64,000 nt of DNA from Candidatus Melainabacteria bacterium. Lineage in GTDB: Bacteria; Cyanobacteriota; Vampirovibrionia; Obscuribacterales; Obscuribacteraceae. Below, one piece after another: positions 3,971 through 42,082 of this stretch (its first letter is position 1; the number at the start of each line of letters is the position of its first letter). The DNA lies in NCBI GenBank assembly GCA_017307165.1, contig JAFKGK010000013.1, positions 14,520-78,519 of the forward strand. Reading direction: 5' to 3'. The notes beneath the pieces were generated by a model. The model was not told where the DNA came from. It ran no database searches and was given only the letters and a program-made list of their open reading frames with translations. The translations under genes were made by a program, and so were the position numbers.

Positions 3971-4045
3971 CCCTGGTGCGGCGCCTCGTCGCACCCCATC
4001 TCGCTACCCTCTGTTCTTCAAACATCTGAACGAAAGGTGAATCTC

Positions 4046-7822: not shown

Positions 7823-7854
7823 GCCTTTTTCCTAACCTTTAAAAGGAGCCTGAT

Positions 7855-9699: not shown

Positions 9700-9814
9700 T
9701 CGCAAGATCACGGCTAAGCACGCTCGATCAGATTAGGCGAGGCTTCTGCAGCAAAAGCAGGAGCCTCGTTTCCTTGTTTCACGATCGTTCATCTCTAAAG
9801 TAAAGGAGCAATCT

Positions 9815-10576: not shown

Positions 10577-10591
10577 GACTGGAGTAACGAT

Positions 10592-14914: not shown

Positions 14915-14939
14915 ACCTAACCTCGCGAGGTAAAAAGCT

Positions 14940-15533: not shown

Positions 15534-15561
15534 GACAAACCTCTGATGAGGAGTAACTCTT

Positions 15562-16659: not shown

Positions 16660-16712
16660 GGCGTTTTCTTTACTAGACCACCTTTCCTCCAAGATCCACC
16701 ATCCCAGGCTCA

Positions 16713-17741: not shown

Positions 17742-17834
17742 ATCGATCTCGCCCGATCTGCCGGGAGCCTCCTCGCGAGAGCGCCCGGCGGATAGCGTGA
17801 TCGGTTCGGGTGTTTCGACAAGGAGCACTAGCAT

Positions 17835-18842: not shown

Positions 18843-18870
18843 GGTCAACACAACCTCAAGGAGTCATACG

Positions 18871-20145: not shown

Positions 20146-20396
20146 GGGTCTCAACCCAGTCCGATAAGCCGGGCCCCCGAGCCTTAAAAACGCCGGTATC
20201 GACAGCGCGCCTAAGCCACTGTCGGTGCCGGCGTCGGCGCATTCTTTGAACAAAACGGAGACACGTATCACACGGACCAACTCCGCATCACGCATAGCTA
20301 ACCTTAACGAAAGCGCCAGAGCCTTCTCCTTGCGACACAAGCAATCGTGTCCCACGGAGAGGGCTTTGGCGCTTCTTTCCATGAAAGAGAAATGCC

Positions 20397-22022: not shown

Positions 22023-22107
22023 GTGTCTCGATTTATCTTTCCGGCGCCTCGCTCAAAGCGAGTTGAGGCGCCGGTTTCTTAACGCGTACCAACCGAAAGG
22101 CACTCTT

Positions 22108-23925: not shown

Positions 23926-24175
23926 ACCCATCAACCTCATAGAAAGGAGTCCGGCCATGACAGGCATAGGGCAGCACGACCGTATGTAGGTCCTGGTGGG
24001 CGCACTGCTCGTCGCAGTGCAAGAGTGCAGGAGCAAACACCCGCTTGCTCGTCTTCCGTTGAAGCTTTTATAGCTTGCCTCTAGACAATCCCGTCTAGAG
24101 GCGGCTGCCTTACGCCTAAAAAGCCGAGGAAACTGCACTCTCCGCTTGCACCAGGGCCTCCAGATCGGAGGTTTT

Positions 24176-28859: not shown

Positions 28860-29017
28860 TCACACCCCCCACATTAAGCAAAACCCCAAACCCACTATAC
28901 CATATAACAACTCCTTGCACAAAAAAATCCAACCGGCAGACACAGCCCTTTCACCACCAAAGGCAAAAGAACCGCGTCCACCGGCCAGATATTTTAGAGC
29001 GCAGCGCGCAACATGCT

Positions 29018-30184
29018 TTAGAGCGCAGCCACCACGACCCACAGACGGAAACGCCCGATCAACCGATCGGCCATCCCATAAAACACATCGTAGACGTGCT
29101 CGTCATCATGCGTCGCAAGATCAGCCCGCTCGACGATGCCGGTGGGAAACACGACATTGTTGACGATGCCTTCCAGCTCATCGCGCGTCTCAGGCTTGAT
29201 AGCCGGCTCCGGCGAGACGTATTTGATGCGATGCGGCTCATCGCCGTCATGCAGCATCACGCCGCCAGCATAGCGCCCCTGGTATCCCGAAGGCCGCGTC
29301 GCCGACGCAAACTGATCGACACCATGAAAGATCTCGAGCAGATTGCCCGCGAGCAAGCCACGCGTGATCTTGACCGGAGCAGTGCCCGCGCCGCACTTAA
29401 AAGTCCCCCAGGCATCGAGCGGCGCAAAGACCAGCTCCGACTCGGTCACCTTGAGGATATTGGCAAAGTCAGCGCGCACAGCGTACAGAGGGATGTACGC
29501 AATGCGGATGCACTGCCGATCGGTGGGCGCCGCAGCCAGAGTCGACTGCACCACGTCCATGCCATCGCGAGCCGGGATATTGGTCATCGGCCGATGGTAA
29601 AGCGCCAGCGACACTTCGCCGGAGGGCGACATCACCGGCTCCGGAAAAAATGCCGCGTCCTTGTCATCGGGATGCAACCCAAAGGTCTCGGGGATATCCA
29701 GAAGCCCCAGACGGTGCCACTTGTATCCGTCCTGCGACCAGGCGAGCGCGATGCGAGGACCGGCCAGACCAAAGGCGGTGTAGCACATCATGTACCGATC
29801 GAGCTCGGCGATAAAGGTCACGCGAGGGTCTTCGCAGCCTTCACCGCCGATGGTGACGCTCTTGCCCGACTCGTCGATGCGGCGACGACGCTCGTAAGCG
29901 GCCTGCGGCACGAGGGCAAAGCCGACGCGCTCATAGGGAGCTTCGTTGCCATCAGCGTCGACGACGGGCTTGCCGTCGGCCCAGAGCTGACGGATCATTT
30001 CGAGACGCGACTGGTTGCCGTGGGCGACCGAGCGCATCATGACGATGAGGTGGCCGTCGCGATCATGGTAGACGGCGGGGTTGAGCACGCCTTCGACCTG
30101 ATAAGGACCGACAGGCGAGGCGACGATGCCGAGGCGCTCGACGCGAGTGGTGATCTTGACGGCAGAGGTGAGGTTGTTTTCCAT
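29018..30184 (-). CDS. GH130-like / DUF377 beta-propeller glycosidase-phosphorylase family protein
   Basis: It has GVLNPAV..DG..LIVMMRSVA and GEGCEDPRVT blocks typical of GH130/GH43-like five-bladed propellers. The start was chosen at MENNL (30184), which is M28 of the track ORF. Confidence 0.5.
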   Translation of the reverse strand: MENNLTSAVKITTRVERLGIVASPVGPYQVEGVLNPAVYHDRDGHLIVMMRSVAHGNQSRLEMIRQLWADGKPVVDADGNEAPYERVGFALVPQAAYERRRRIDESGKSVTIGGEGCEDPRVTFIAELDRYMMCYTAFGLAGPRIALAWSQDGYKWHRLGLLDIPETFGLHPDDKDAAFFPEPVMSPSGEVSLALYHRPMTNIPARDGMDVVQSTLAAAPTDRQCIRIAYIPLYAVRADFANILKVTESELVFAPLDAWGTFKCGAGTAPVKITRGLLAGNLLEIFHGVDQFASATRPSGYQGRYAGGVMLHDGDEPHRIKYVSPEPAIKPETRDELEGIVNNVVFPTGIVERADLATHDDEHVYDVFYGMADRLIGRFRLWVVVAAL

Positions 30185-30944
30185 TTCAATTGTCCTGCAA
30201 ACTTGTTGGAGAGCAGACCAATAGTCATAACCACCTTGCCAAATGGACTGGCGGAGGCTGGACATGACTATTGGACCGGGGGTGAGGTTGATGGTAGAAA
30301 AAATTTCTGGGATGTCTAGATAATAAATTTGCTCTCTATAAAATCACTGCTTTTTGTTAAAGGGATGATTTAAACCTACCTGTGCAGGCGTGCCTTTCCA
30401 AATCTTGCCGACCTTGAGTTCGTCCCACTGCCATAATTGCGCTAATCTGCAAAATGCCCAGAGGGAGGGCATCTATGCATGGAGAAATACCCGGGTGCAA
30501 ATGCAGGGCAGCAGATTATGAGAGGCAACTCAAAAGGACATGGTTGCGCGACCTTCGCTAGCACTGGCATAGGCTCAGTTTTATTAGCCATGGCTCAGTA
30601 AACCCGCAAAGCCAACAATCACGTCAACTTGCATGGCTGGCGCACATAACGGTTCTTTACAAGCCTCCTCAAAGGCACCCTTATAAAACGCCTGATTGGC
30701 TAGTTTGTTTCTACATCCTTCCTTTTCACTGTCCACGAGCAAATCCCGCCTAGTTTTCACCCAACTCCACCACTGCATCTTTATCGCAAATTTTTCCCTC
30801 GGCCCCACCGTTGGAAAAAGCACGCGAATCAGATGGCAGCAAAGGATCGATTCGATCTTGTGGTGTCAGCTAGCGATAAGCTCGTGCGTGCGTCGAATGG
30901 ATATGGATGGTTTAACAACCGCTCAAATCGAAAGTAGATCAAAC

Positions 30945-33056
30945 ATGGACACAGTGCTCGGTTACCTTCCCACCGTCCTGCCGATCGTCATCGGCCTCGC
31001 AGTCGTCGCCTTTTTGGCACTCAAATTTGTCGTGAACGTCGGTCCGACCCAGATCGCGATCATCGAACGTCGTTACATGGGCAAAAAGCTCCCCGCCAAC
31101 CGTGCCTTCGCCATGCCCGGCGAGGTCGGCATCCAGGCCAAGTATCTCGACCCCGGCCTGCACTTTGTGTTCTGGCCCTTTACGGTCGTGATCAAGAAGG
31201 AAAACTTTGTCATCATCGGCGCCAACGAGCTCGGCGTCCTGACGGCCACCGACGGTGAAGCCATGCCCTCGGGCCGTGTCTTTGCCGAAGACGCCGCCGG
31301 CGAAAAGCACGGCAATTTCCAGGACCCGATCGGCTTCCTCGAGAACGGTGGTATCCGCGGTAAGCAGCTGCGCTTCCTGACCAACGGTACCTACAAGATT
31401 CACCCGTTCCTCTTTCAGGTCGCTCGCATCCAAAAGACGATGATCCCCGAAGGCTGCATCGGTGTCGTCACCGCTGCTGACGGTGCGTCGCTCGAAGAAG
31501 GCCAGCTGCTCGGCAAGCGCATCGCCGGCCACGACAACTTCCAGAAGGCCGAGGTCTTCCTCAAGCAGGGCGGCCAGAAGGGTCCGCAGATCGACTTCCT
31601 CAAGCCGGGTACCTACAACATCCACACCGACATGCTCAAGATCGAGCAAAAGCAGGCGGTGCAGGTGCGCGAAAACGAGGTCGGCATCGTCGACTCCAAG
31701 GCCGGCCAGCCCATGGGCAAGGATGACGTCGTCGCCGAGACGCCGGACCTCCTGCTGCACTCGTCCTTCCAGGACGGCCAGGCCTTCCTCGACAACGGCG
31801 GCAAGCGCGGCCCGCAGGTCATGCCGCTGCGGCCCGGTACGTACTACATCAACCCCTACCTGTTCTCGGTGGTGATGAAGCCCCAGACGGTGATCAAGCA
31901 GGGCGAGGTCGGCGTGCTGATCTCGCATGTCGGCAAGGACCCGGCGGCCCTCAACGGCGAAAACAAGGTCCCTGGCACCGGCCCGGTTTCGACTGGCGCC
32001 GAGGATCCCGAAGAGTCGCGTCATGACTCTGGCGTCCGCGGCCGTCACGTTGTGCCCGAAGGCTTCCGCGGCATCCAGATGAACGTCCTGATGCCCGGCA
32101 ACTACAACATCAACCCGCTGGCCTACACGGTGATCAAGGTCCCGACGACGACCCGTTCGATCGAATGGTCCGAAAACCAGACCTCGGGCGACTTCAACCC
32201 CTTCTCGGTCGTCTCCAACGACGGCTTCGAGATGCAGGTCGAAGTGCGCTGCCAGTATCGCATCCTGCCGGAAAACGCACCGTATGTGGTGCAGAAGCTC
32301 GGCTCGATCGAAGAGCTCGAAAAGAACGTCCTGCATCCGCAGATCGACGGGATCTTTCGGGCGCAGGTGTCCAAGTCGCCGGCGATCAAGTACCAGCAGG
32401 AGCGCGCCAACGAGCAGACCGACGCCGAGACCGCGGTGCGCACCGACCTCGACCGCTACAAGGTCGAGATCGTCTCGGTCATGATCTGCAACATCAAGCT
32501 CCCGCAGGAGCTGATGCACACCACCCAGGAGCGCAACCTGGCCCAGCAGCGTGAGCAGATGTACACTGCTCAGGAAGCCGCCGAGAACAAGCGCATCTCC
32601 TTTGCCAAGAAAAAGGCCGAGGCCGACCAGCAGCCCGCCATCATCGCGGCGCAGTCGGGCATCGAGATCGCTCGCCACGAAGCCTCGCAGATGGAAGAGC
32701 GCGCCAAGGGTACGGCAAAGCAGATCGAGATCGAAGCCACCGCTACCGCCGGCCGCGTCAAGCAGATCGGAGATGCCGAAGCCTCGGTCATCGAGTCCAA
32801 GGGCGCCGCGACCGCCAAGGCCTACGCCGAGCAGGGTGCTGCCCTGACTCCGGAAGGCCTGACCGTCATCGAGATCATGCGCATGGTCTCCGAGGGCAAG
32901 GTCAAGATCGTCCCCGATGTCGTCGCCGGTGGTGGCAACTCGGGCGGCGGCATGGTCGACCTCCTGCTCGCCGATATGGTGCAGCGCAGCCGCGAGCCCA
33001 AGGCTCCGTCGCTGTCGGCTGCTCCGGCTCCGGCCAAGGCGGACGAGACCAAGTAA
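30945..33056 (+). CDS. Flotillin-like SPFH/band-7 protein (YqiK-like)
   Basis: It has an N-terminal TM segment (VLGYLPTVLPIVIGLAVVAFLALKFV) and an SPFH core. The C-terminus has a flotillin-type E/A/Q-rich coiled coil (AQQREQMYTAQEAAENKRISFAKKKAEADQQ...IEIEATATAGRVKQIG). The start could instead be 30897 or 30903. Confidence 0.75.
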   Translation: MDTVLGYLPTVLPIVIGLAVVAFLALKFVVNVGPTQIAIIERRYMGKKLPANRAFAMPGEVGIQAKYLDPGLHFVFWPFTVVIKKENFVIIGANELGVLTATDGEAMPSGRVFAEDAAGEKHGNFQDPIGFLENGGIRGKQLRFLTNGTYKIHPFLFQVARIQKTMIPEGCIGVVTAADGASLEEGQLLGKRIAGHDNFQKAEVFLKQGGQKGPQIDFLKPGTYNIHTDMLKIEQKQAVQVRENEVGIVDSKAGQPMGKDDVVAETPDLLLHSSFQDGQAFLDNGGKRGPQVMPLRPGTYYINPYLFSVVMKPQTVIKQGEVGVLISHVGKDPAALNGENKVPGTGPVSTGAEDPEESRHDSGVRGRHVVPEGFRGIQMNVLMPGNYNINPLAYTVIKVPTTTRSIEWSENQTSGDFNPFSVVSNDGFEMQVEVRCQYRILPENAPYVVQKLGSIEELEKNVLHPQIDGIFRAQVSKSPAIKYQQERANEQTDAETAVRTDLDRYKVEIVSVMICNIKLPQELMHTTQERNLAQQREQMYTAQEAAENKRISFAKKKAEADQQPAIIAAQSGIEIARHEASQMEERAKGTAKQIEIEATATAGRVKQIGDAEASVIESKGAATAKAYAEQGAALTPEGLTVIEIMRMVSEGKVKIVPDVVAGGGNSGGGMVDLLLADMVQRSREPKAPSLSAAPAPAKADETK

Positions 33057-33164
33057 CTAAGTAGAACGGGGGTCGATCGTCATTGACGGTCGGCCCTCGT
33101 TTCTTTTTTGGGAATGCATACGCACCCCAGTAGTAAGTAAGGTTTAAAGAAAAAGGATCAAAGA

Positions 33165-34190
33165 ATGAAGACAACCATTATAGTGATCGTCCTGATCGTC
33201 GCTGTAATTGTCATCGCCAAGATCATCGCCACCAGGCGTGCTCGCAAAAAGGCTGAGGCTGAGGCGTCCGCCGGCTCCGGCAACAAGGGTGGCAATATCT
33301 TTGCGGCGGCCTCCGGCACCACCGGCGATGCCGCCTCCCAGTCCAACGCAGCGTCGGCCTCGCTCCTCGAGCTTCAGGCGGAGCCTGCCCCTGAGCCCGA
33401 ACCGGAGCCCGAACCGACCGTGACAGATCTCATAAAAGAAGCAGACGAACATCTCGCGCAATTTGCCTACGACGATGCGGCCGACTCTCTCGAATCCGCG
33501 CTCGAACTCGCCATCCAGAACGATGGTGCCGACTCGATCGTGGTCGCGCAGATCCTGCTCAAATTGCAGCAAGCCCTGCAATCGCGCGACAACGACGACG
33601 AAGAAAGCATCGAGAGCCTCGAAGGCCGCCGCGCTCTCGCCATCATCGTCGGCGCGCACGGGCCGTTTTCGGCTGAGGCCAAGCCGGCTATCGAACGCGT
33701 GATCTCGTGCTACTTGCTGCTCGGCAAGCAGAGCGAGGCCGATGCGCTGATGCGACGTCATCGTCAGATCGACGATATCGCGTCGCTGTATGCCGACTCG
33801 CCGCGCGACTTTGTGCTCGGCTTTGGCATCGCGTTTGGCGAAAGTCCCGACACCGATGCCGATGACGCCATCTCGTCCCTAGACGATCTGATCAATACGA
33901 TCAGGCAGGACAAGGGTCGCGAAGCAGTCGAGCTCATCGAGCCCCTGCGCCGTCTCGGTCGTGCTACCCAGGCGCGCGACTGGCGTGATACCAACAGCGA
34001 TGGCGAGACCTATACCGATCCGGCGACGCTGTTTCAGCTCGCGCTGTCGATCGCCTATTTGCAGTATGGCCCTACCGACCGGCGCCTGGTGCCGATCTAC
34101 AACGATCTGGCGGCCTTTTGGGATCAGGCGGGCGATCACTTTAAGGCGGATGGATACGTCAATCAGATCCGCTCCATTTTGACCGCTTAG
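33165..34190 (+). CDS. Membrane-anchored helical (TPR-like) protein of unknown function
   Basis: It has an N-terminal TM segment (IIVIVLIVAVIVIAKII), a (EP)n linker and an acidic helical body. An RBS (aaaaaggat) precedes the start. It lies immediately downstream of the flotillin gene. Confidence 0.4.
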   Translation: MKTTIIVIVLIVAVIVIAKIIATRRARKKAEAEASAGSGNKGGNIFAAASGTTGDAASQSNAASASLLELQAEPAPEPEPEPEPTVTDLIKEADEHLAQFAYDDAADSLESALELAIQNDGADSIVVAQILLKLQQALQSRDNDDEESIESLEGRRALAIIVGAHGPFSAEAKPAIERVISCYLLLGKQSEADALMRRHRQIDDIASLYADSPRDFVLGFGIAFGESPDTDADDAISSLDDLINTIRQDKGREAVELIEPLRRLGRATQARDWRDTNSDGETYTDPATLFQLALSIAYLQYGPTDRRLVPIYNDLAAFWDQAGDHFKADGYVNQIRSILTA

Positions 34191-35077: not shown

Positions 35078-35962
35078 ATGCGCGATCATTTTAAATATGG
35101 GCTGTTACTCTCGGCAGCACTAACAGTCACACTAGCCAATATGTCCTTCCTATCAGCCTTTGCCAGGGTAGAAGGAGCCAAATCAGCAAACGCTATCGCA
35201 CAAAAGCTTCTCAAGGTCGACAAAGATATCACGGTAACAGAATCTATCAGGATCGCAAATGCTCGCAGTTTAGGACTACCCGACGCCGCAAGCCTGGTCA
35301 TGATCGAAAACACAGCCTGGCATAAACATGCTGACCAACAAGCACAAATCTATGGATGGCCCATTGGCCTTGACAAACAAGACTTTGCAAAGCTAACCGA
35401 AAAACAAAAAAGAGACGATCTTTGTCGAAGAGCAAATTTGCCAGACTCAGCAACTGACGCCCAAATAGAAGACGCAAGTCGAAACCTAAAAGATCAACAA
35501 AAAAAGCTAATGGCCGAAGAACAGGCGATACAACACAAGAATCTCCCAGTAGACCTTGAAAATAAAGCCTATGTTTCAGTCATGCAAAAACAAAAAGAGT
35601 TAAACCGACCAGGTGCTGCACGAATGGCAGGATTACCACCATCTGCGACCTGGCAGCAAATCAAATCAAAGCAGCAAGACGATCTAATTCAACAACTAAA
35701 GAGGAAATACGGCTTATCAAAATCAGTGAGCCAAGAGCAGCTCAATCTTGCCATTAAAAACCATTTGGATCGAGAGAAAATTGAAATGGCCCGCCGCATT
35801 TTAAAGGCGCCAAAAACGCAGTCGGACTCGGAGATTTGGACTCAAATGCAAATATTAGCCAAGGCGTTGGGCTACTCGAAAGACGCAGCAATTCATTCGG
35901 AAGGTGAGATTTTCACAGCAGAGGATCTTTTTACTCAAATAACCCAAAGCAACGCAAAGTGA
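35078..35962 (+). CDS. Hypothetical secreted protein, K/Q-rich
   Basis: The start at MRDHFKYGLLLSAALTVTLANMSFLSAFA gives a signal peptide. I recognise no family. Confidence 0.35.
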   Translation: MRDHFKYGLLLSAALTVTLANMSFLSAFARVEGAKSANAIAQKLLKVDKDITVTESIRIANARSLGLPDAASLVMIENTAWHKHADQQAQIYGWPIGLDKQDFAKLTEKQKRDDLCRRANLPDSATDAQIEDASRNLKDQQKKLMAEEQAIQHKNLPVDLENKAYVSVMQKQKELNRPGAARMAGLPPSATWQQIKSKQQDDLIQQLKRKYGLSKSVSQEQLNLAIKNHLDREKIEMARRILKAPKTQSDSEIWTQMQILAKALGYSKDAAIHSEGEIFTAEDLFTQITQSNAK

Positions 35963-37161
35963 AATCAGCTCTCCAAAAAACCAAGCTCTTGTTCGTATCA
36001 GCGCTGCTGGCGATAGTCGGCTCCGCCGTTTCGACAAATCATGCAGATTCTAAATTTGCTTATTTTGATAGACAAAGAACCGGCCTCACCTATGGTTTCA
36101 TCGACAAGACTGGTCGTTTCATCATCCCACCAAAATTCTCAAAGGCATCGAGTTTCGATGCCACAGGCATTGCATTGGTCGAGATAAAATCCACAGCCGA
36201 CAAAAATTGGTACACTAGCAAATTGATCGACACGAACGGCCGCATGGCCCCAGGCTCCGATGAGATCGATGTTTTGAGTCTACCCAAGCAGTCCCTGGCA
36301 GTATGTCGCTGGAAAGATAAAGCTGAGAGCTCAAAAAAACCATTACGAAAGGGTTTCACGTACTGCACGGCTGATGGAAAAATCTTTAAACGAGATTTCC
36401 AATCAGCTGAAGATTTTGGTGAAGGTCTTGCCATAGCCACAACAGGCGGCTTGACTGGCTTTGTGCATAGCGACGAGACTTTTCAGCCTATACAAACACT
36501 GACTGGCTGCGATGCTTTAGGGGCTTTCGCCGACGGAGTAGCGCCTGTTCGTCAGCATGGCAAAAGCGGATACATCGATAAAAGAGGCAACTGGCACATC
36601 GAGCCGATTTTCAGAGACGCACAGGTCTTCAGCAAGGGCTTGGCCAGGGTGCAACACATGTTCTCCGCTGGCAGCATAGTCGATCACCGGCTGTTACCAA
36701 ACTCAATTAGATGGGGCCTGATAGATACTAAGGGGAAATGGGTGGTAACTCCTTGCTATTTAGAAATTGGCCCTCTTAAAGAAGGCTTGCAATACTTTCG
36801 TGATGGAGACTTGATGGGTTTTATGGACGAAACTGGAAAGATTGCAATCCCTGCCAAATATAGCCAGGCTGGATCTTTTTCAGAAGGTCTCGCACCGGTA
36901 TGCTTGCAAGACTCGCGCACCTTGGTCTTTATAGATCGAACAGGCAAAATCATCTTGAGTCGTGACTTAAAGGATCCCGTGCGGATTACCGATGAGTGGC
37001 CGACCTTTAGGCAAGGTCTCTGCGCAATGTACCAGAAGTATAAAAGCGAGTCTAGATGGGGGTTTATAGACAAGAAAAACCAATGGAAGATTAAGCCGAT
37101 GTTTAATGAGGTCAAATCATTCTCGGGGAAATACGCGGTGGCGGGAGTCAAATCCAGGTAG
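35959..37161 (+). CDS. WG-containing (KWG-type) repeat protein, secreted
   Basis: It has a signal peptide and seven repeats of the pattern GFIDKTGRFIIPPKF...F.EGLA (for example GYIDKRGNWHIEPIF..FSKGLARV; GFMDETGKIAIPAKY..FSEGLAPV). Confidence 0.7.
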   Translation: MKSALQKTKLLFVSALLAIVGSAVSTNHADSKFAYFDRQRTGLTYGFIDKTGRFIIPPKFSKASSFDATGIALVEIKSTADKNWYTSKLIDTNGRMAPGSDEIDVLSLPKQSLAVCRWKDKAESSKKPLRKGFTYCTADGKIFKRDFQSAEDFGEGLAIATTGGLTGFVHSDETFQPIQTLTGCDALGAFADGVAPVRQHGKSGYIDKRGNWHIEPIFRDAQVFSKGLARVQHMFSAGSIVDHRLLPNSIRWGLIDTKGKWVVTPCYLEIGPLKEGLQYFRDGDLMGFMDETGKIAIPAKYSQAGSFSEGLAPVCLQDSRTLVFIDRTGKIILSRDLKDPVRITDEWPTFRQGLCAMYQKYKSESRWGFIDKKNQWKIKPMFNEVKSFSGKYAVAGVKSR

Positions 37162-37295
37162 ACAAAATCGGGAATCTGAGCCATTTACGGAGCAAGCGCA
37201 CCTGCGCCTCAAGGTCTAAATCCATATGGATAACTAACGATATGACCTTCTTTGGGTTCAAATTCTGGCTTAGGTCGATCGATGGCATATTTTTG

Positions 37296-38170
37296 GGCTC
37301 TGTTGCAAAAATTTTTGGACACGAAATACGGTTACCTTTCCGTCGGCAGTGCCTCATATAGTGAGTGCCAGAACTCACGAGATGCCTCGTCGTCTTCGAT
37401 TCCGAAAACCTTTTCTACCAGGTAGACTTCTCCTTTGACTCCTGGGAAGCGCTGCCAGGCGCGAAGCTGGCCCTTTCGAAACATCCGCATGACCTCAAAT
37501 CCCTTAATGGTCGCATACGCTGTTTTCATCGTTTTAAATCCTCGCACCGGATAAATCAGACGCTTGAGCTTGCCATGATCGGCTTCCAGACCGTTATTCA
37601 AGTATTTGACTTGTCGATGCAGTATGTTCGGGTCGCACTTACCGGCAAGTTTCATTTCCTTGAGAGCCACACCGTATGAAGGGTTCTTGTCTGTATTGAT
37701 TGTGTGTGGGCTATCGGCCAACTTCATTTTTCGAATGGCTTTGCTAAGAAAACGCTTTGCCATAGCCGTGCTTCGAGTGGGCGACAAGAAGAAATCAATT
37801 GTGTCTCCGTCTTTGGATATCGCTCGATACAGGTATTTCCAGTCCCCGCCCACCTTGATGTATGTCTCGTCAACGTGCCAGGTGCCGCTAATTGCTGGGC
37901 GATAGCGCCAACGCAGCCGCTTTTCGAGTTCCGGTCCATAGTGTTGCACCCACCGGTATATTGTGGTGTGGTCAACTTCGATGCCTCGCTCTCGCATTAT
38001 TTCTTCGAGGTCTCGGTAGCTGAGACCGTACTTGCAGTACCAGCGAACACATTGCAAAATGGTCTCGCCTTTGAAGTGCCGCCATTTAAAATCGCTCATG
38101 CTTCCTCCTTTCAATGAGACTGGATGCCCGGGCGGGGTATTATTTCGCAGAATGGTAGATATGCGAAGTT
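37296..38170 (-). mobile_element. IS6-family element; one terminal IR identified, other end not found
   Basis: An IS26-like terminal repeat (ggctctgttgcaaa) sits at 37296..37309, 22 bp past the transposase stop. No matching inverted copy was found upstream of the transposase start. The element may therefore be 5'-truncated or rearranged against the adjacent integrase remnant. Confidence 0.5.
37332..38099 (-). CDS. IS6-family (IS26/IS257-like) transposase
   Basis: MSDFKWRHFKGETILQCVRWYCKYGLSYRDLEEIMRERGIEVDHTTIYRWVQHY..DETYIKV..KTMKTAYATIKGFEVMRMFRKGQ is collinear with IS26 Tnp26. Confidence 0.85.
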   Translation of the reverse strand: MSDFKWRHFKGETILQCVRWYCKYGLSYRDLEEIMRERGIEVDHTTIYRWVQHYGPELEKRLRWRYRPAISGTWHVDETYIKVGGDWKYLYRAISKDGDTIDFFLSPTRSTAMAKRFLSKAIRKMKLADSPHTINTDKNPSYGVALKEMKLAGKCDPNILHRQVKYLNNGLEADHGKLKRLIYPVRGFKTMKTAYATIKGFEVMRMFRKGQLRAWQRFPGVKGEVYLVEKVFGIEDDEASREFWHSLYEALPTER

Positions 38171-38191
38171 AAATCGCCGAAAGAAGGGTTA

Positions 38192-38868
38192 ATGCCTGCG
38201 CGCGCATCTAAAAAACCGGCCAGTTTCGCACCATCAAAAGGAAATGCGAAATCGGAGGCCGTCAAGAAAATTCTTCGTATCGCCAGGCAGCACCGCCTGG
38301 GCTATGACGATTTTGTGCAAGTCTGCCAACAAGTCCGGATCAAATTGAATTTGAGAAAGCCCAAGAAAGAGCGGCGGCTTCCAGAGCTGTTGCCGCCGGC
38401 AGAGCTAAAGAAATTTTTCAAAGCGGTCCAGAAGTGCGGCGATTTGCAGCACGAACTGATGCTCAAGCTGCTGTTATACACTGCCGTGCGAGTCAGCGAG
38501 TTAGTCAATATCCGTGTGAGCGATCTGGACCTAGAAGCCTGCAAGATCTTCATCGACAGCGGGAAGGGAAACAAAGACCGATATATTCTTTTTCCAGCGA
38601 GTTTCCGACTAGCACTGAAAAGCTTTGTGGAAGCCCGGCCGCAGAATGTATCTCTTCGAGTCTCGTTTGAATCAACCCTACACTACCAGGCGTATTCAGC
38701 AAATAGTGCGGCTTTACACCGATGAAGCCGGTCTTGAGCTCTGATTCCAAGCTCCAGCTCATTTCCGGCCATGAAAGCCGCAAGAGCTTGGAGTTGTATC
38801 AGCACTTATCGCTTGAATCTGTTGAAGCCGAATATCAGCAAGCAGTCCGACTTTTGGATGTCTAGAAG
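38192..38868 (+). pseudogene. Tyrosine recombinase/integrase remnant (frameshifted, internal deletion)
   Basis: The N-terminal part (LLLYTAVRVSELVNIRVSDLDLEACKIFIDSGKGNKDRYILFP) is the integrase catalytic-domain start. The frame breaks near 38680 (RRIQQIVRLYTDEAGLEL* in frame +1). The C-terminal block (LQLISGHESRKSLELYQHLSLESVEAEYQQAVRLLDV*) lies in a third frame. The H-x-x-R segment between them is missing. Confidence 0.55.
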
Positions 38869-38878
38869 CAAGCTGCTC

Positions 38879-39946
38879 TCACCGAGTTTCATACCAAGCT
38901 TTGCTTGAATTCACGATTTTGACGACCGACAACATAACCGGCACTTCGATCAGAACACCCACAACAGTGGCCAGGGCGGCGCCGGAATTGAAGCCAAATA
39001 GGCTTATGGCCGTGGCTACCGCCAACTCGAAGAAGTTGCTGGCGCCGATCAATGCGGACGGGCAAGCTACGGAGTGCGCGACGCCGAGGCGCTTGTTTAG
39101 CAGGTATGCAAGGGCCGAATTGAAATAGACCTGAATCAGGATCGGTACAGCCAGGATGGCGATGACCATGGGCTGCCTGATGATAGCGTCACCCTGGAAG
39201 CCAAACAATAAAACCAGCGTCGTTAACAGTGCAAGCAACGACAGCGGATGCAATTTGTCTAGCACGCCTTCCAGCGCTTGAGGACCGGCTTTGAGCAAAG
39301 CACCGCGCCACAGTTGTGACAGCAAGACCGGTACAACGATATAGAGTCCCACCGAAATTAAGAGAGTTTCCCATGGCACAGTTATTGATGAAAGCCCCAG
39401 AAGAAGCCCGACTATGGGCGCAAACGCAAAGACCATGATGAGGTCATTTACTGCAACCTGGCTGAGCGTAAAGTATGGATCGCCTTTTGTTAGTTGACTC
39501 CAGACAAACACCATAGCGGTACAGGGAGCCGCTGCCAGGATGATCAGACCAGCTATGTAGCTATCAATTTGTGCGGCTGGTAGGTACGGTGCAAAGACAT
39601 GTTTGATGAAAATGAAGCCTAAGAAAGCCATGGAGAATGGCTTAATAGCCCAGTTTATAAAGAGTGTCACGCCCATTCCGCGCCAATGTTGTTTCACCTG
39701 GTCGATTGCTTTGAAGTCAATTTTCAAAAGCATCGGGATAATCATGACCCAGATGAGAAGCCCCACGGGCAGGTTAACGCGGGCGATCTCCATCGCACCA
39801 ATCGCTTTGAAAACTCCAGGCATTAGCTGACCAAGAAGGACACCGGCACCAATGCACAGGAACACCCACAACGTAAGCCACCGCTCGAAAAAGCCTATGC
39901 TCGGCTCGTTGTCGGTTAGTTTTGGAGTCGCTATCTGGGAAGTCAT
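38879..39946 (-). CDS. acr3: Arsenite efflux permease, ACR3 family
   Basis: A 355-aa protein whose N-terminal block (FFERWLTLWVFLCIGAGVLLG) is ACR3-typical. It has about 10 TM segments. Confidence 0.85.
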   Translation of the reverse strand: MTSQIATPKLTDNEPSIGFFERWLTLWVFLCIGAGVLLGQLMPGVFKAIGAMEIARVNLPVGLLIWVMIIPMLLKIDFKAIDQVKQHWRGMGVTLFINWAIKPFSMAFLGFIFIKHVFAPYLPAAQIDSYIAGLIILAAAPCTAMVFVWSQLTKGDPYFTLSQVAVNDLIMVFAFAPIVGLLLGLSSITVPWETLLISVGLYIVVPVLLSQLWRGALLKAGPQALEGVLDKLHPLSLLALLTTLVLLFGFQGDAIIRQPMVIAILAVPILIQVYFNSALAYLLNKRLGVAHSVACPSALIGASNFFELAVATAISLFGFNSGAALATVVGVLIEVPVMLSVVKIVNSSKAWYETR

Positions 39947-39948
39947 TT

Positions 39949-40368
39949 TTACACCTGCACTGGATCAGCACAGCAGTTTGTCGCGTTCAAGCCCTGTAGA
40001 AGCTTGAGCACGCGCGTTCTTATCTCGTCTCGGATTTGGCACACTTCATCGTCAGACTTGCCTTTTGGATCTGGCAAAGGCCAATCATCGCGCTTCAGAC
40101 CGGGCACAAAGGGACAGGCTTCGCCACATCCCATGGTTACAAGTAGGTCGGCGCCGGCCGCTAGTTCGTCTGTCAGAAGCTGGGGCCTAACGTTTGCCAA
40201 GTCGATCCCGGCTTGTTTCATGGCATGCAGAACACAGTCATGAACTTTGTCGGCCGGTTGCGTTCCGGCTGACACTGCCTGAGCTTTTGCCGGGTCGGCA
40301 AACTGATTGAAAAAGGCGGCCGCCATCTGTGAGCGTCCTGCATTGTGTACGCAGGCGAATATTACTTT
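39949..40368 (-). CDS. arsC: Arsenate reductase, LMW-PTP (thioredoxin-coupled) type, with extra C-terminal CC tail
   Basis: It has a CX5R P-loop (CVHNAGRSQMA) and a GCGEACP region, and ends ..NATNCCADPVQV. The start MKVIF at 40368 overlaps the upstream stop (ATGA). Confidence 0.8.
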   Translation of the reverse strand, partial: KVIFACVHNAGRSQMAAAFFNQFADPAKAQAVSAGTQPADKVHDCVLHAMKQAGIDLANVRPQLLTDELAAGADLLVTMGCGEACPFVPGLKRDDWPLPDPKGKSDDEVCQIRDEIRTRVLKLLQGLNATNCCADPVQV

Positions 40369-40838
40369 CATCTGCTGCATTCCTTCTTGCCTATGCTGAC
40401 CGGCACCGCTTCCGGCATTGGAGCGCAGCAAGCCGAGTTGGTTTGTGTTGTAAAATCGGCGTCTTCGCCATAGGTTGTGGCGCTATCGGTCGTGTAGAAG
40501 CTTTCCCAGGCAATGCCTTGAGGATCGTGTACCCACGCTTTATCCGCTTTGGCGTAACAGCAAGTAGTTTGTTCTTGCTCAAGAATTGGCTGTTGAGCCT
40601 GTTTGAGTCGTACTGAAATTTCCTTGAGCGCTTCGCCGTCGTCAACTTGAATGCCCAAATGGTCGAGCCCTGGCTCTCTTCCGCGAGTAGAGATGGCAAA
40701 GTTTATGCGAGGATCATCAAGCATCCATTTGGCATAGTCTTCCTTCTTGACGGTTGGCGGCACATCAAAAAAGGTTGAGTAGAACTGTATCGACTGCTCT
40801 AAGTCAGCCACTGCAACATGAACATGGAACCTTTTCAT
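40368..40838 (-). CDS. VOC/glyoxalase-fold protein, ArsI/CadI-like (vicinal cysteine pair)
   Basis: MKRFHVHVAVADLEQSIQFYSTFF and TTCCYAKADKAWVHDPQGIAWESFYT resemble the ArsI C-As lyase As(III)-binding region. It has a second CC (NSACCAPMPE) near the C-terminus. Confidence 0.6.
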   Translation of the reverse strand: MKRFHVHVAVADLEQSIQFYSTFFDVPPTVKKEDYAKWMLDDPRINFAISTRGREPGLDHLGIQVDDGEALKEISVRLKQAQQPILEQEQTTCCYAKADKAWVHDPQGIAWESFYTTDSATTYGEDADFTTQTNSACCAPMPEAVPVSIGKKECSR

Positions 40839-41191
40839 TAACACTTTCCTCCATTGTCGGCACAACAGTTTTCCATCAAGAACCCGAGTAGCTCTTGCAT
40901 GTGACCGTAATTTGCCGCGTATATAATTGACCGGCTCTCGCGCCTGGATGCTATCAAACCTGCATTACTCAGCTCTTTTAGGTGGAATGACATAGTTGCC
41001 GGTGGCATTGAGAAATGATCGCTCAATTCCCCAGCAGCCATACCGGTTGCACCTTTGCGGACCAATAGCCTGAAGATATCCAAGCGTGATTCTTGCGCTA
41101 AAGCCCCAAGGGCCTTAACTGCGTCGTTTGTTTTCATATTTCCAGAATAATCGAAGGGTTGCGATAAGTCAAGCCTCCAGAATTTTTGCAA
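40838..41191 (-). CDS. arsR: ArsR/SmtB-family repressor with C-terminal CC-x6-C arsenite site
   Basis: It has a wHTH (LAQESRLDIFRLLVRKGATGMAAGELSDHF) and ends ENCCADNGGKC, like C-terminal-site (AfArsR-type) ArsR. The start is ambiguous: TTG at 41191 or ATG at 41137. Confidence 0.75.
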   Translation of the reverse strand: MQKFWRLDLSQPFDYSGNMKTNDAVKALGALAQESRLDIFRLLVRKGATGMAAGELSDHFSMPPATMSFHLKELSNAGLIASRRESRSIIYAANYGHMQELLGFLMENCCADNGGKC

Positions 41192-41197
41192 CAGAGC

Positions 41198-41503
41198 CTA
41201 TTTTTGAGTGCCCAGATCCGCATACATAAGCAACCCACCTTTTTTGATGACTCTCTTAGTGCGTCTGTCCACCGCACTCATAATTGATTTAACATTGTCG
41301 CAACGAAGTTCTATTGGCGCATTCTTCGCGAGTTTAACCTGCCTGATTTCACTACCATTTATTTCATGACCTAGAGCTAAATCCTGAGTAGCTTGAGTAC
41401 CCATGTAATCCCAGTCAATTTCTTCATGCGAAGTTAGATAAAATCCGATGATTGTTAAACCAAGGCAAACTCCACCAATAATTAGCAATCTACCGGGTTT
41501 CAT
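41198..41503 (-). CDS. Small single-TM protein of unknown function
   Basis: A 101-aa protein (MKPGRLLIIGGVCLGLTIIGFYL...) immediately upstream of arsR on the same strand. Confidence 0.35.
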   Translation of the reverse strand: MKPGRLLIIGGVCLGLTIIGFYLTSHEEIDWDYMGTQATQDLALGHEINGSEIRQVKLAKNAPIELRCDNVKSIMSAVDRRTKRVIKKGGLLMYADLGTQK

Positions 41504-41585
41504 TACTGCTACCTCTACCCTCATAATCTACAAACTAAGATTAGCTTTTCAAAAAAACAATACGTAACTCACGGACAGTTTTATC

Positions 41586-42082
41586 TGCGCGAGCAGACAT
41601 AGAAGGGAGGGCAGTTCATTTTCTTGCTCGCAACTATGTACGACACCTTGCCGATTACATCTAAGAAAGCAGGCACAGAAGGGAGGGCAGTTCATTTTCT
41701 TGCTCGCGTCTACGCACACCACCTTGCCGATTTCATCTAAGAGGGCAGGCATAGAAGGGAGGGCAGATCATTTTCTCGCTTGCGTTAACGCACACCACCT
41801 TGCCGATTACATCTGAGAGGGCAGGCATAGAGGGGAGGGCAAATGTTTTTCTTGCTTGCGTCAACGCACACCACCTTGCCGATTACATCTAAGAGAGCAG
41901 GCATAGAAGGGAGGGCAGTTGATTTTCTCGCTTGCGTCAACGCACACCACCTTGCCGATTACATCTGAGAGGGCAGGCATAGAAGGGAGGGCAGTTGATT
42001 TTCTCGCTTGCGGCAGCGCACACCACCTTGCCGATTACATCTAAGAGAGCAGGCATAGAAAGGAGGGCAGTTGCTTTTCTGC
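41586..42082. repeat. Tandem repeat array, 76-bp unit x about 6.5 copies
   Basis: The anchor gattacatct recurs at 41653, 41729, 41805, 41881, 41957 and 42033, an exact 76-bp period. Units are about 90-95% identical, with the consensus gcaggcatagaagggagggcagttgattttctcgcttgcgtcaacgcacaccaccttgccgattacatctaagaga. There are no unique spacers. The period is not a multiple of 3. Confidence 0.9.

What the first reader, a model, noticed from the sequence alone, without database searches (positions are those of the whole stretch)
38879..41191. ars operon (arsR, ArsI-like VOC, LMW-PTP arsC, acr3) in which three different proteins end in a similar vicinal-cysteine CCA(D/P) tail
ArsR ends ENCCADNGGKC, an AfArsR-type C-terminal As(III) site. 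The LMW-PTP ArsC carries an extra NATNCCADPVQV tail beyond its catalytic cysteines. The VOC-fold protein has both the ArsI-type TTCCY pair and a second NSACCAPMPE near its C-terminus. Recurrence of near-identical CCA(D/P) tails on a repressor, a reductase and a lyase-like enzyme suggests a shared As(III)-handover or sensing tag rather than coincidence. The start/stop overlaps (ATGA) indicate tight translational coupling. The operon lies in a low-GC island next to IS6 and integrase remnants, consistent with horizontal acquisition.
Basis: partly seen in the sequence, partly recalled or inferred. Interest (0 to 1): 0.55.

Follow-up and report, generated by a model that had tools for sequence, protein, structure and literature searches.

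The report
Mobile arsenic operon with cysteine-pair tails
This is an ordinary four-gene arsenic-resistance operon from an uncultured Obscuribacterales (Melainabacteria) bacterium; the look-alike cysteine-pair tails on three of its proteins have separate evolutionary origins and are not a shared tag, and the operon sits inside a 3.9-kb IS6-type mobile unit.

Summary
The operon on the minus strand is arsR (40838-41137), arsI (40368-40838), arsC (39949-40371) and acr3 (38879-39946).

A cysteine pair (CC) near the C-terminus is far commoner here than chance allows: all three soluble Ars proteins have one, against 4 of 194 other ORFs. The similarity beyond CC does not hold up, because the tails differ in evolutionary age:
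- **ArsR.** NCCADNGGKC is the known AfArsR-type As(III) sensor site and is nearly invariant in 120 relatives.
- **ArsI.** A-CC-x-P on a disordered tail is a family-wide trait. It occurs in 59 of 81 diverse representatives and in Burkholderia, Bacillus, Mycobacterium and Streptomyces isolates.
- **ArsC.** The CC tail is confined to close Obscuribacterales relatives, usually reads ECCDL, and is reduced to one cysteine or lost in many of them, including several 83-89% identical ones. NCCAD occurs in only 3 of 45 CC-bearing clusters.

The "shared tag" is therefore best read as independent use of As(III)-binding thiols. Product capture or handover remains possible but untested.

Only one gene junction is ATGA, and the operon is not a low-GC island (51.0% against 52.1% nearby). 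Horizontal mobility is nevertheless well supported: perfect 18-bp IS26-like inverted repeats and an 8-bp target duplication bracket the transposase, an integrase remnant and the operon.

The parts
40838..41137 (-). arsR, a 99-aa AfArsR-type (C-terminal site) As(III)-responsive repressor. Sensor cysteines are C91/C92 (40862-40867) and C99 (40841-40843).
   Evidence: Pfam HTH_20/HTH_5 and NCBIfam HTH_metalloreg 69.6 bits against a cut-off of 55. Best PDB relative is AfArsR 6J05 at E 8.8e-18, with ENCC aligned. The tail NCCADNGGKC is nearly invariant in 120 homologues.
41144..41172 (-). Promoter of the operon: TTGACT, 17 nt, TATTCT. The -10 box ends 6 nt before the arsR ATG, so the arsR mRNA is probably leaderless. 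In relatives a conserved TATTTC-N10-GAAATA inverted repeat overlaps the -10 box and the start codon and is a likely ArsR operator.
   Evidence: Promoter scan. Alignment of the upstream regions of 13 related loci shows a conserved TTGAC-N17-TAATAT-TGGAAAT-ATG. The operator role is inferred.
40368..40838 (-). arsI, a 156-aa ArsI/CadI-family VOC-fold enzyme (C-As lyase type). Putative Fe(II) ligands are H5, H60 and E112. The substrate-binding pair is C93/C94 (40557-40562).
   Evidence: NCBIfam NF041414 138.9 bits against 116. Aligned with T. curvata ArsI. Invariant columns. Foldseek top 15 hits are all C-As lyase, TM 0.91.
40371..40478 (-). ArsI C-terminal tail, residues 121-156. It is predicted disordered and carries C137/C138 (40425-40430, SACCAP) and C154 (40377-40379).
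   Evidence: pLDDT 51-58 beyond residue 120. CC is present in 115 of 115 close homologues, as CCAP in 101 and with a further downstream Cys in 89. 59 of 81 diverse family representatives have at least one CC in the tail.
39949..40371 (-). arsC, a 140-aa LMW-PTP-fold arsenate reductase of the thioredoxin-coupled Cg_ArsC1' type. Catalytic cysteines are C7 (P-loop CVHNAGRS), C82 and C86.
   Evidence: Pfam LMWPc. Best PDB hit is 3T38 at E 4.5e-29, with C7/C82/C86 aligned to C88/C162/C166. Foldseek top hit is Cg_ArsC1'.
39952..39987 (-). ArsC C-terminal tail NATNCCADPVQV, with C133/C134 at 39970-39975. It is an extra, flexible, clade-specific extension.
   Evidence: The last helix ends at residue 128 and the tail pLDDT is about 59. 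Among the 109 top homologues with a scorable tail, 45 have CC, 25 a single C and 39 none; NCCAD occurs in only 3. The tail is absent from the roughly 140 loci outside Obscuribacterales.
38879..39946 (-). acr3, a 355-aa ACR3-family arsenite efflux permease.
   Evidence: TIGR00832 383.6 bits against a cut-off of 282.8.
37296..41198 (.). A 3,903-bp IS6-family-bounded unit. It has perfect 18-bp terminal inverted repeats GGCTCTGTTGCAAAAATT (37296-37313 and 41181-41198) and encloses the transposase, an integrase remnant and the whole ars operon with its promoter.
   Evidence: Inverted repeat I1 is 100% complementary. There are only two copies in the window and none next to the transposase start. The repeat is 13 of 14 identical to the IS26 TIR GGCACTGTTGCAAA (PMC8477213).
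37288..37295 (.). Left copy of the 8-bp target-site duplication TATTTTTG. The right copy is at 41199-41206.
   Evidence: Read directly from the sequence. An 8-bp duplication is the IS26/IS6 hallmark.
41199..41206 (.). Right copy of the 8-bp target-site duplication TATTTTTG.
   Evidence: Removing the unit and one copy in silico extends the flanking 108-aa ORF (41198-41524, minus strand) to 134 aa.
37332..38114 (-). IS6-family DDE transposase, full length.
   Evidence: NF033587 265.8 bits against 125, covering profile positions 1-202 of 202. Pfam DDE_Tnp_IS240.
38192..38725 (+). Truncated tyrosine recombinase (integrase) remnant, convergent with acr3.
   Evidence: Pfam Phage_integrase covers only profile positions 3-86 of 172. 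The XerA-like profile is covered at positions 76-182 of 263, far below cut-off.

Best explanation
**What it is.** This is a standard ArsR-controlled arsenic detoxification operon of the arsR-arsI-arsC-acr3 kind. It is carried as cargo inside an IS6-family transposable unit in an Obscuribacterales (Melainabacteria) genome.

**How it works** (inferred from family knowledge):
1. ArsR dimers sit on an operator that overlaps the -10 box and start of a leaderless arsR.
2. As(III) binds the three C-terminal cysteines (C91, C92, C99) and releases the repressor.
3. ArsC reduces As(V) to As(III) through the C7 to C82 to C86 disulfide relay, which thioredoxin recycles.
4. ArsI, a non-haem Fe(II) dioxygenase, binds trivalent organoarsenicals at C93/C94 and cleaves the C-As bond to give As(III).
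5. Acr3 exports As(III).

**The tails.** The cysteine-pair tails are three independent acquisitions of the same chemistry, namely soft thiol ligands for As(III) on flexible C-termini:
- ArsR's tail is the sensor site.
- ArsI's tail is an ancestral, family-wide Cys-rich appendage that lies outside the crystallised catalytic domain.
- ArsC's tail is a recent, loosely conserved accessory of one clade.

The CCA(D/P) look-alike is coincidental on top of that convergence. If the enzyme tails have a function, the most likely one is transient capture or buffering of the As(III) product. This last step is inferred, not shown.
For: - **Family assignments:**
- **Catalytic and sensor residues present:**
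- **Operon conserved in Obscuribacterales.** ArsR and ArsI tails stay constant while ArsC tails vary (CC, single C or none).
- **ArsI tail is family-wide.** 59 of 81 diverse representatives have at least one CC after the VOC domain and 33 of 81 have two or more pairs; P at +2 follows 48 of 106 pairs. The same is seen in Burkholderia, Bacillus, Mycobacterium and Streptomyces isolates.
- **ArsC tail is clade-restricted.** Counts are 45 CC, 25 single C and 39 none; ECCDL dominates and NCCAD occurs in 3 clusters. No CC tail occurs in the Acidobacteriota, Myxococcota or proteobacterial loci or in the isolate ArsCs.
- **Tails are disordered:**
- **CC enrichment in the window:**
- **All solved ArsI structures are 123-126-residue constructs,** shorter than the 145-159-aa isolate ArsI proteins read, so they probably lack such a tail.
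- **Mobile unit:**. The same insertion is seen in four further contigs, and a variant has an adjacent deletion.
Against: - NCCAD is shared as five identical residues by ArsR and ArsC, in a region where ArsC relatives are variable. A rough chance estimate is a few per cent, so convergence on ArsR's local motif, or an old micro-conversion, cannot be excluded.
- CC in the ArsC tail is kept in most relatives above about 78% identity while flanking residues change and the Cys codons vary synonymously. This suggests some selection on the pair, so "accessory" may understate it.
- The ArsI of this clade has Ala where T. curvata ArsI has Gln103, which a review reports as essential. Lyase activity of this subfamily is therefore assumed, not shown.
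- No binding or activity data exist for any of these proteins.
Confidence: 0.7

Rival explanations
1. Shared As(III)-handover or sensing tag. The CC tails on ArsC and ArsI capture nascent As(III) at the two As(III)-producing enzymes and pass it by thiol exchange to Acr3 for export, or to the like-looking ArsR site for induction. This would be a built-in metallochaperone arm analogous to ArsD.
For: - Both enzymes with extra tails release As(III), and the third protein senses it.
- The tails are flexible.
- The ArsI tail offers the same ligand set (CC plus a distal C) as ArsR.
- Other lineages also show ArsR and ArsI ending alike, for example ...SCC in Bacillus sp. BS98 and ...GCC in Polyangia.
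- Acr3-ArsC fusions in Mycobacterium show that coupling of reductase and pump can be selected (PMC6514093).
Against: - The ArsC tail is lost or reduced in many close relatives that keep ArsR, ArsI and Acr3 (L083, L084, L085).
- CC-tailed ArsC occurs without an adjacent acr3 (L162, L164).
- ArsI tails occur across phyla regardless of ArsC type.
- A review reports that As(III) does not bind ArsI significantly by ITC; the construct used was not stated.
- The tail-less 123-126-residue constructs still fold and bind substrate in the crystal (5v0f with Roxarsone).
- By LMW-PTP topology, the ArsC tail starts at the end of a 22-residue helix whose far end faces the active site. It probably cannot reach its own active site in a monomer (inference).
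Confidence: 0.15
2. The ArsC tail is functionally neutral. It is a drifting clade-specific C-terminus that happens to contain cysteines. Only the ArsR site and the ArsI catalytic pair matter.
For: Among the closest relatives the pair is replaced by GC, CR, YC or TR (P0003, P0009, P0011, P0014). Overall, 64 of 109 scorable relatives lack the pair. Tail length and sequence vary widely.
Against: - In the top 60 hits, 42 of 57 scorable tails keep CC although every flanking position varies.
- The Cys codons vary synonymously (TGC/TGT) across loci.
- CC near a C-terminus is rare in this window, at about 2% of ORFs.
Confidence: 0.12
3. The extra ArsC cysteines are part of the redox relay. They would act as an additional resolving pair or internal reductant that makes the enzyme less dependent on thioredoxin.
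For: LMW-PTP arsenate reductases work by intramolecular disulfide cascades. Cg_ArsC1' is described as a thioredoxin-dependent enzyme with three catalytic cysteines.
Against: The complete C7/C82/C86 triad is already present and invariant. The tail pair is dispensable in many close orthologues. The tail is remote from the P-loop by fold topology (inference).
Confidence: 0.03

Closest known systems
Bacillus subtilis SKIN-element ars operon (arsR-arsI/yqcK-acr3-arsC) and its plasmid relatives
   Same: It has the same four functions under one ArsR-controlled promoter. It lies in a mobile context. Its ArsR has C-terminal CC...CC and its ArsI has a Cys-pair tail (PMC12607644; Bacillus sp. BS98 plasmid).
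   Different: The gene order here is arsR-arsI-arsC-acr3. The ArsC here is of the Cg_ArsC1' type, not the pI258/B. subtilis type: 54 bits against a 174-bit cut-off. The Bacillus ArsC has no CC tail. The host is a non-photosynthetic cyanobacterial relative.
Acidithiobacillus ferrooxidans ArsR (AfArsR, PDB 6J05), with the type 2 C-terminal As(III) site
   Same: It is the best structural relative, with ENCC aligned to Cys95/Cys96. A third cysteine follows on the tail, and there is no alpha-3 CXC site.
   Different: The spacer is CC-x6-C here, against Cys96 to Cys102 (x5) in AfArsR. Identity over the aligned stretch is moderate.
Thermomonospora curvata and Bacillus sp. MD1 ArsI C-As lyases
   Same: The VOC fold, the metal triad, the substrate-binding CC, and Tyr and Lys at the Tyr38 and Lys105 positions are shared.
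   Different: Ala98 replaces Gln103; this whole subfamily has Ser or Ala at that position. The solved structures are 123-126-residue constructs, probably without a C-terminal tail, so nothing is known structurally about the CCAP tail.
Corynebacterium glutamicum Cg_ArsC1' (PDB 3T38), a thioredoxin-dependent arsenate reductase
   Same: The P-loop cysteine and the GCGxxCP resolving pair align with C88, C162 and C166. It is the top hit by both sequence and fold.
   Different: Cg_ArsC1' has an 80-residue N-terminal extension and no C-terminal CC. The window protein has no N-terminal extension but has the 12-residue CC tail.
ArsD arsenic metallochaperone
   Same: It works like what the handover reading proposes: vicinal cysteine pairs bind As(III) and pass it to an efflux component (general knowledge of the family; not tested here).
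   Different: There is no sequence or fold relationship. ArsD is a separate protein that serves ArsA. No arsD or arsA gene lies in the operon or in the IS6-bounded unit.
IS26/IS6-family insertion sequences
   Same: A full-length IS6 transposase, terminal repeats 13 of 14 identical to the IS26 TIR, an 8-bp target duplication, and a variant showing an adjacent deletion.
   Different: The unit is 3.9 kb, with about 3 kb of cargo lying between one terminal repeat and the transposase gene. By my recollection, IS6 elements are usually a bare IS of about 0.8 kb, or a pair of IS copies flanking the cargo.

Membership tests
AfArsR-type (C-terminal site) ArsR repressor | ArsR/SmtB winged helix-turn-helix fold | tested here: met
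   HTH_20 50.9 bits, HTH_5 30 bits, NF033788 69.6 bits against 55.
AfArsR-type (C-terminal site) ArsR repressor | Three C-terminal cysteines (vicinal pair plus one) equivalent to Cys95/96/102, and no alpha-3 CXC site | tested here: met
   C91/C92 align with Cys95/96 of 6J05. C99 lies 6 residues after the pair, against 5 in AfArsR. These are the only cysteines in the protein (sequence).
AfArsR-type (C-terminal site) ArsR repressor | As(III)-dependent release from the operator | not testable with these tools
   Only a conserved promoter-overlapping inverted repeat was found.
ArsI C-As lyase (ArsI/CadI VOC family) | Family profile above the curated cut-off, and the VOC fold | tested here: met
   NF041414 138.9 bits against 116. 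Foldseek TM 0.91 and rmsd 1.8 A to 5v0f.
ArsI C-As lyase (ArsI/CadI VOC family) | Fe(II) triad (Gln/His8, His65, Glu117 in TcArsI numbering) and the substrate-binding vicinal Cys98/Cys99 | tested here: met
   H5, H60, E112, C93 and C94 are aligned and invariant in 45 sequences.
ArsI C-As lyase (ArsI/CadI VOC family) | Second-sphere residues Tyr38, Gln103 and Lys105, reported as essential | tested here: not met
   Y35 and K100 are present, but Gln103 corresponds to Ala98. It is Ser or Ala in this subfamily and Gln in the Bacillus, Mycobacterium and Streptomyces members. So fold and family membership are shown, while identical chemistry is assumed.
ArsI C-As lyase (ArsI/CadI VOC family) | MAs(III)/aromatic arsenical C-As bond cleavage activity | not testable with these tools
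   Requires an enzyme assay.
Thioredoxin-coupled LMW-PTP arsenate reductase, Cg_ArsC1' type | CX5R(S/T) P-loop nucleophile plus two resolving cysteines in GCGxxCP | tested here: met
   C7-VHNAG-R13-S14. C82 and C86 align to C162 and C166 of 3T38.
pI258/B. subtilis ArsC (TIGR02691) and Synechocystis glutaredoxin-type ArsC (TIGR02689) | Equivalog profile above the curated cut-off | tested here: not met
   54.3 against 174.3 bits and 57.8 against 157.6 bits. The protein shares the fold but is not a member of these subfamilies.
ACR3 arsenite efflux permease | TIGR00832 above cut-off | tested here: met
   383.6 against 282.8 bits, profile positions 2-326 of 327.
IS6-family insertion sequence | IS6 DDE transposase, IS26-like terminal inverted repeats and an 8-bp target duplication | tested here: met
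   NF033587 265.8 bits. 18-bp perfect repeats, 13 of 14 identical to the IS26 TIR. TATTTTTG lies on both flanks.
IS6-family insertion sequence | Compact element (about 0.7-0.9 kb) with the repeats directly flanking the transposase gene and no passenger genes | tested here: not met
   The unit is 3,903 bp, and one repeat is separated from the transposase start by the ars operon and an integrase remnant. There is no internal repeat. The typical size is from my own knowledge.
ArsD-type metallochaperone (considered for the tails) | ArsD fold with the Cys12/13/18 site and an ArsA partner | tested here: not met
   There is no ArsD or ArsA gene in the operon or the IS6 unit. The tails are disordered peptides, not a domain.

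The most novel reading that the evidence does not exclude
The Cys-pair tails of the two As(III)-generating enzymes may be built-in metallochaperone arms. ArsI's tail occurs family-wide and has the same CC-plus-distal-Cys ligand set as its partner ArsR. ArsC's tail is an Obscuribacterales innovation. On this reading the arms catch the product at the enzyme and deliver it directly to the ArsR sensor site and/or to Acr3. Induction and export would then be fed by channelled rather than free As(III). In several unrelated lineages ArsR and ArsI in one operon end alike (...SCC, ...GCC), which would fit matched donor and acceptor sites.
Probability: 0.12. Interest if true: 0.6.

Novelty: new variant of a known kind. 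Interest (0 to 1): 0.3.

Why it matters
As found, this mostly tidies up the observation. It shows which cysteines belong to known sites and which are extra, and that a striking three-fold motif is a coincidence layered on convergent thiol chemistry.

Two points have some value:
- The Cys-rich tail of ArsI/CadI enzymes is widespread, yet all solved structures are short 123-126-residue constructs. Its role is an open and easily testable question. The loosely conserved ArsC tail offers a natural series of with, half and without variants for that test.
- A whole regulated ars operon is packaged between the terminal repeats of a single IS6-type transposase, with a clean 8-bp target duplication. This is an unusual way for this IS family to carry cargo, and it shows how arsenic resistance moves among uncultured Melainabacteria.

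Tried and rejected
- **Recent copying of the tail between genes.** Rejected. The NCCAD codons of arsR (AAC TGT TGT GCC GAC) and arsC (AAC TGC TGT GCT GAT) differ at three synonymous sites, and arsI uses GCT TGC TGC GCT CCA.
- **CC-tailed ArsC needs an adjacent acr3.** Rejected. L162 and L164 have the tail without a neighbouring acr3, while L005 and L044 have acr3 after a tail-less ArsC.
- **Low-GC island.** Rejected.
- **Primary papers on ArsI truncations and cysteines.** Yoshinaga and Rosen 2014, Pawitwar 2017 and the MAs(III)-selective ArsR paper are not held in the library. Searches for NsArsI and CadI gave nothing on the tails. My recollection that C-terminally truncated ArsI remains active is therefore not used as evidence.
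- **Empty-site allele of the IS6 insertion.** Not found. The reconstructed 134-aa ORF is not in the protein collection, and every contig carrying the 101/108-aa form also carries the insertion.
- **A matching second terminal repeat in L163.** Only a degenerate copy before the arsR promoter was found.
- **Structured RNAs.** Rfam gave no hit in 36-44 kb.
- **Intramolecular distances from tail to active site.** These could not be measured because model coordinates are not exposed.


Full report
**1. What is there**

The minus strand of 38879-41191 holds four tightly packed genes:
- arsR: 40838-41137, 99 aa from the ATG used by nearly all homologues.
- arsI: 40368-40838, 156 aa.
- arsC: 39949-40371, 140 aa.
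- acr3: 38879-39946, 355 aa.

The junctions are TAATG (arsR/arsI, 1-nt overlap), ATGA (arsI/arsC, 4-nt overlap) and TAA-AA-ATG (arsC/acr3, 2-nt gap). Shine-Dalgarno-like GGAGGA and AAGGA sit 8-9 nt before the arsI and arsC starts. The genes are close enough for coupled translation, but "ATGA overlaps" describes only one junction.

The tails read exactly as reported:
- ArsR ends ...ENCCADNGGKC.
- ArsI ends ...NSACCAPMPEAVPVSIGKKECSR, in addition to TTCCY.
- ArsC ends ...NATNCCADPVQV.

**2. Identity of the proteins**

*ArsR.* It is an ArsR/SmtB winged-helix protein. Its best solved relative is Acidithiobacillus ferrooxidans ArsR (6J05, E 8.8e-18), with ENCC aligned to the Cys95/Cys96 pair. AfArsR binds As(III) with Cys95, Cys96 and Cys102 (PMC12607644). 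The window protein has exactly three cysteines (C91, C92, C99) and no alpha-3 CXC site.

*The VOC protein.* It passes the NCBIfam ArsI/CadI equivalog (138.9 against 116 bits). It aligns over 116 residues with T. curvata ArsI and keeps H5/H60/E112, C93/C94, Y35 and K100, all invariant in a 45-sequence alignment. Its AlphaFold model superposes on the C-As lyase crystal structures (TM 0.91, rmsd 1.8 A). One caveat applies. The residue matching Gln103, which a review lists as essential, is Ala98 here. It is Ser or Ala throughout this subfamily, whereas the Bacillus, Mycobacterium and Streptomyces members have Gln.

*ArsC.* It has the LMW-PTP fold. Its nearest relative is the thioredoxin-dependent Cg_ArsC1' (3T38, E 4.5e-29; Foldseek top hit). 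C7, C82 and C86 align with the catalytic C88, C162 and C166 (PMC6514093). It falls far below the cut-offs of the pI258 and Synechocystis subfamilies.

*Acr3.* It passes TIGR00832.

*Organism.* Named homologues are from Candidatus Melainabacteria/Obscuribacterales. The window matches a 264.6-kb JGI metagenome contig.

**3. Are the tails more than chance?**

For the cysteine pair, yes. Among 197 stop-to-stop ORFs of at least 100 aa in the window, only 7 have CC in the last 25 residues. Three of the 7 are the soluble Ars proteins, and the other four are on other strands and in other places.

For the CCA(D/P) resemblance, no:
- **ArsR.** In its 120 best homologues the residues flanking CC are N (118), A (101) and D (116). 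This is a fixed lineage motif.
- **ArsI.** All 115 full-length close homologues have the tail pair. 101 have it as CCAP, and 89 have a further cysteine, typically 13-17 residues downstream.
- **ArsC.** This tail is the only free variable. Among the 109 top hits with a scorable tail, 45 have CC, 25 a single C and 39 none. The common form is (E/D/A/G)CCDL, and NCCAD occurs in 3 clusters: the window's own and its two nearest. Given the fixed ArsR and ArsI motifs, the three-way likeness is roughly a 1-in-15 outcome within the ArsC clade.

**4. Evolutionary depth of each tail**

*ArsI.* A whole-library HMMER search returned 150 representatives, each from a 50%-identity cluster. Of 81 with an intact catalytic domain and at least 15 residues after it, 59 carry at least one CC in the tail and 33 carry two or more pairs, with up to six. 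The typical context is A-CC-x-P; P sits at +2 after 48 of 106 pairs, and 18 pairs lie at the very C-terminus. Isolate genomes show the same:
- Burkholderia multivorans: ...ASACCSPARGKPIGVPVKSSCC
- Bacillus sp. BS98: ...PSCCTTSNEVEKNSCC
- Mycobacterium avium CadI-type: ...GVCCSS...ATSCC
- Streptomyces: ...DACCSS...GCACG

CCAP is therefore a family trait, and the NCBIfam profile itself extends over it (query residues 3-141).

*ArsC.* In 160 loci recovered with ArsC as query, no ArsC from Acidobacteriota, Myxococcota, Proteobacteria or Bdellovibrionota has a CC tail. Only Obscuribacterales relatives do. Within that clade the operon arsR-arsI-arsC(-acr3) is conserved and the ArsR and ArsI tails stay constant. 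ArsC, by contrast, ends in CCDLE, CCGSE, CCAEE, HCES, RCES or cysteine-free sequences. Several of the closest relatives (83-89% identity) read NGCADP, KCRSD, NYCVDP or ATRVDS. Against pure neutrality, 42 of 57 scorable tails among the top 60 hits keep CC while every flanking position varies, and the Cys codons differ synonymously between loci.

**5. Structure**

AlphaFold places the last ArsC helix at residues 107-128 and leaves residues 129-140 at low confidence, with mean pLDDT about 59. The ArsI VOC domain ends near residue 120, and residues 121-156 have pLDDT 51-58. All three cysteine pairs therefore sit on, or directly after, the last ordered element. All solved ArsI structures are 123-126-residue constructs. 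These are shorter than the 145-159-aa isolate proteins, so they probably lack such a tail.

**6. Mechanism**

The supported reading is the textbook circuit:
1. ArsR represses from a site overlapping the promoter.
2. As(III) bound by C91/C92/C99 relieves repression.
3. ArsC makes As(III) from As(V) by the C7 to C82 to C86 relay, reduced by thioredoxin.
4. ArsI makes As(III) from trivalent organoarsenicals.
5. Acr3 exports As(III).

These steps are inferred from family membership; none was assayed. The extra cysteines on the two As(III)-producing enzymes are plausible product ligands.

Evidence that weakens a dedicated handover tag:
- The ArsC pair is dispensable in close orthologues.
- There is no link between a CC-tailed ArsC and an adjacent acr3 (L162 and L164 against L005 and L044).
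- A review reports that As(III) does not bind ArsI appreciably by ITC, with the construct unspecified.
- By fold topology, the ArsC tail starts at the far end of a 22-residue helix from the P-loop (inference).

Evidence that keeps handover alive:
- ArsI's CC-plus-distal-Cys mirrors ArsR's ligand set.
- ArsR and ArsI of one operon end alike in other lineages as well: Bacillus ...GSCC and ...NSCC; Polyangia ...GCC and ...GCC.
- Acr3-ArsC fusions exist in Mycobacterium.

**7. Context: a mobile unit**

The operon's GC (0.510) equals that of its 30-kb surroundings (0.521). The compositional outliers are 60-65% GC blocks at 2-11, 14-24 and 29-34 kb.

Mobility is shown differently:
- A perfect 18-bp inverted repeat, GGCTCTGTTGCAAAAATT, lies at 37296-37313 and 41181-41198. 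It is 13 of 14 identical to the IS26 terminal repeat GGCACTGTTGCAAA (PMC8477213). There is no further copy in the window.
- The repeats enclose a full-length IS6 transposase (37332-38114), a truncated tyrosine recombinase (38192-38725) and the whole ars operon with its promoter.
- The 8-bp direct repeat TATTTTTG flanks both ends (37288-37295 and 41199-41206).
- Removing the unit in silico extends the adjacent 108-aa ORF to 134 aa.
- The same insertion occurs in four other contigs. One variant protein reads straight from that ORF into the repeat 16 codons earlier, as expected for an IS26-like adjacent deletion.
- A related locus (L163) keeps a degenerate repeat at the same position before the arsR promoter and also has an IS6 transposase and an integrase next to acr3.

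No empty-site allele was found.

**8. Promoter**

TTGACT-17-TATTCT (41172-41144) ends 6 nt before the arsR ATG. Thirteen related loci share TTGAC-N17-TAATAT-TGGAAAT-ATG with an embedded TATTTC-N10-GAAATA inverted repeat. This suggests a leaderless arsR and an operator overlapping the -10 box and the start codon. Both points are inferred.

**9. Verdict**

The gene calls are right. The shared-tag interpretation is only weakly supported. The system is a known kind of ars operon with two modest twists: a loosely conserved Cys-pair tail on a Cg_ArsC1'-type reductase, and packaging inside a single IS6-type unit. Interest is low to moderate.

Noticed in passing
window 37288-41206: The ars operon, an integrase remnant and an IS6 transposase lie between perfect 18-bp IS26-like inverted repeats. 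The unit is flanked by the 8-bp duplication TATTTTTG. It is a 3.9-kb cargo-carrying IS6 unit that interrupts a 134-aa ORF.
   Followed up: yes
window 41135-41172; loci L001, L002, L003, L082, L084-L087, L120, L162-L164: The arsR promoter is conserved, with its -10 box 6-7 nt before the ATG, so the mRNA is probably leaderless. A TATTTC-N10-GAAATA inverted repeat overlaps the -10 box and the start codon and is a candidate ArsR operator.
   Followed up: partly
window 41591-42080: A tandem repeat of a 76-bp unit, 6.4 copies at about 90% identity, lies just beyond the interrupted ORF. It occurs nowhere else in the window and has no Rfam match.
   Followed up: partly
window 2000-11000, 14000-24000, 29000-34000: Blocks of 60-65% GC sit in a window that is otherwise about 50% GC, with long ORFs on both strands. 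One encodes a PrkA-type kinase (1772-3970). An IS4-like DDE_Tnp_1_4 transposase (11420-12886, 45% GC) lies between two of the blocks. They could be foreign islands or a mosaic assembly.
   Followed up: no
L161 3426-4040: In a close relative (ArsC 88% identical), an unannotated 204-aa membrane protein sits between arsC and acr3. It has GCCGSP in a hydrophobic segment and a C-terminal ...AGCCDTGTQC tail, which is another CC-x5-C motif in an ars operon. It has no Pfam or NCBIfam hit.
   Followed up: no
L170 (Bacillus sp. BS98), L171 (M. avium), L034/L065/L068/L076/L077 (Polyangia): ArsR and ArsI of the same operon often end alike: ...GSCC and ...NSCC in Bacillus, and ...GCC and ...GCC in Polyangia. 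The M. avium Rv2640c-type regulator has VCCAP near its N-terminus and ends NCCT. This may reflect matched sites or simply shared ancestry within lineages.
   Followed up: partly
P0512 (cluster of the 108-aa ORF, window 41198-41524): A variant of the flanking ORF runs directly into the IS6 terminal repeat 16 codons earlier (...DRRTKR-GLCCKNSGG...). This indicates an adjacent deletion at the IS end in another population.
   Followed up: partly
window 40545-40547 (ArsI Ala98): This ArsI subfamily, which includes Burkholderia and Obscuribacterales members, has Ser or Ala where T. curvata ArsI has Gln103. A review reports that residue as essential for catalysis.
   Followed up: partly
window 35959-37161: A 400-aa WG_beta_rep (KWG-type repeat) protein lies directly left of the IS6 unit. 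In the JGI annotation of the source contig, no gene is called where arsR lies.
   Followed up: no
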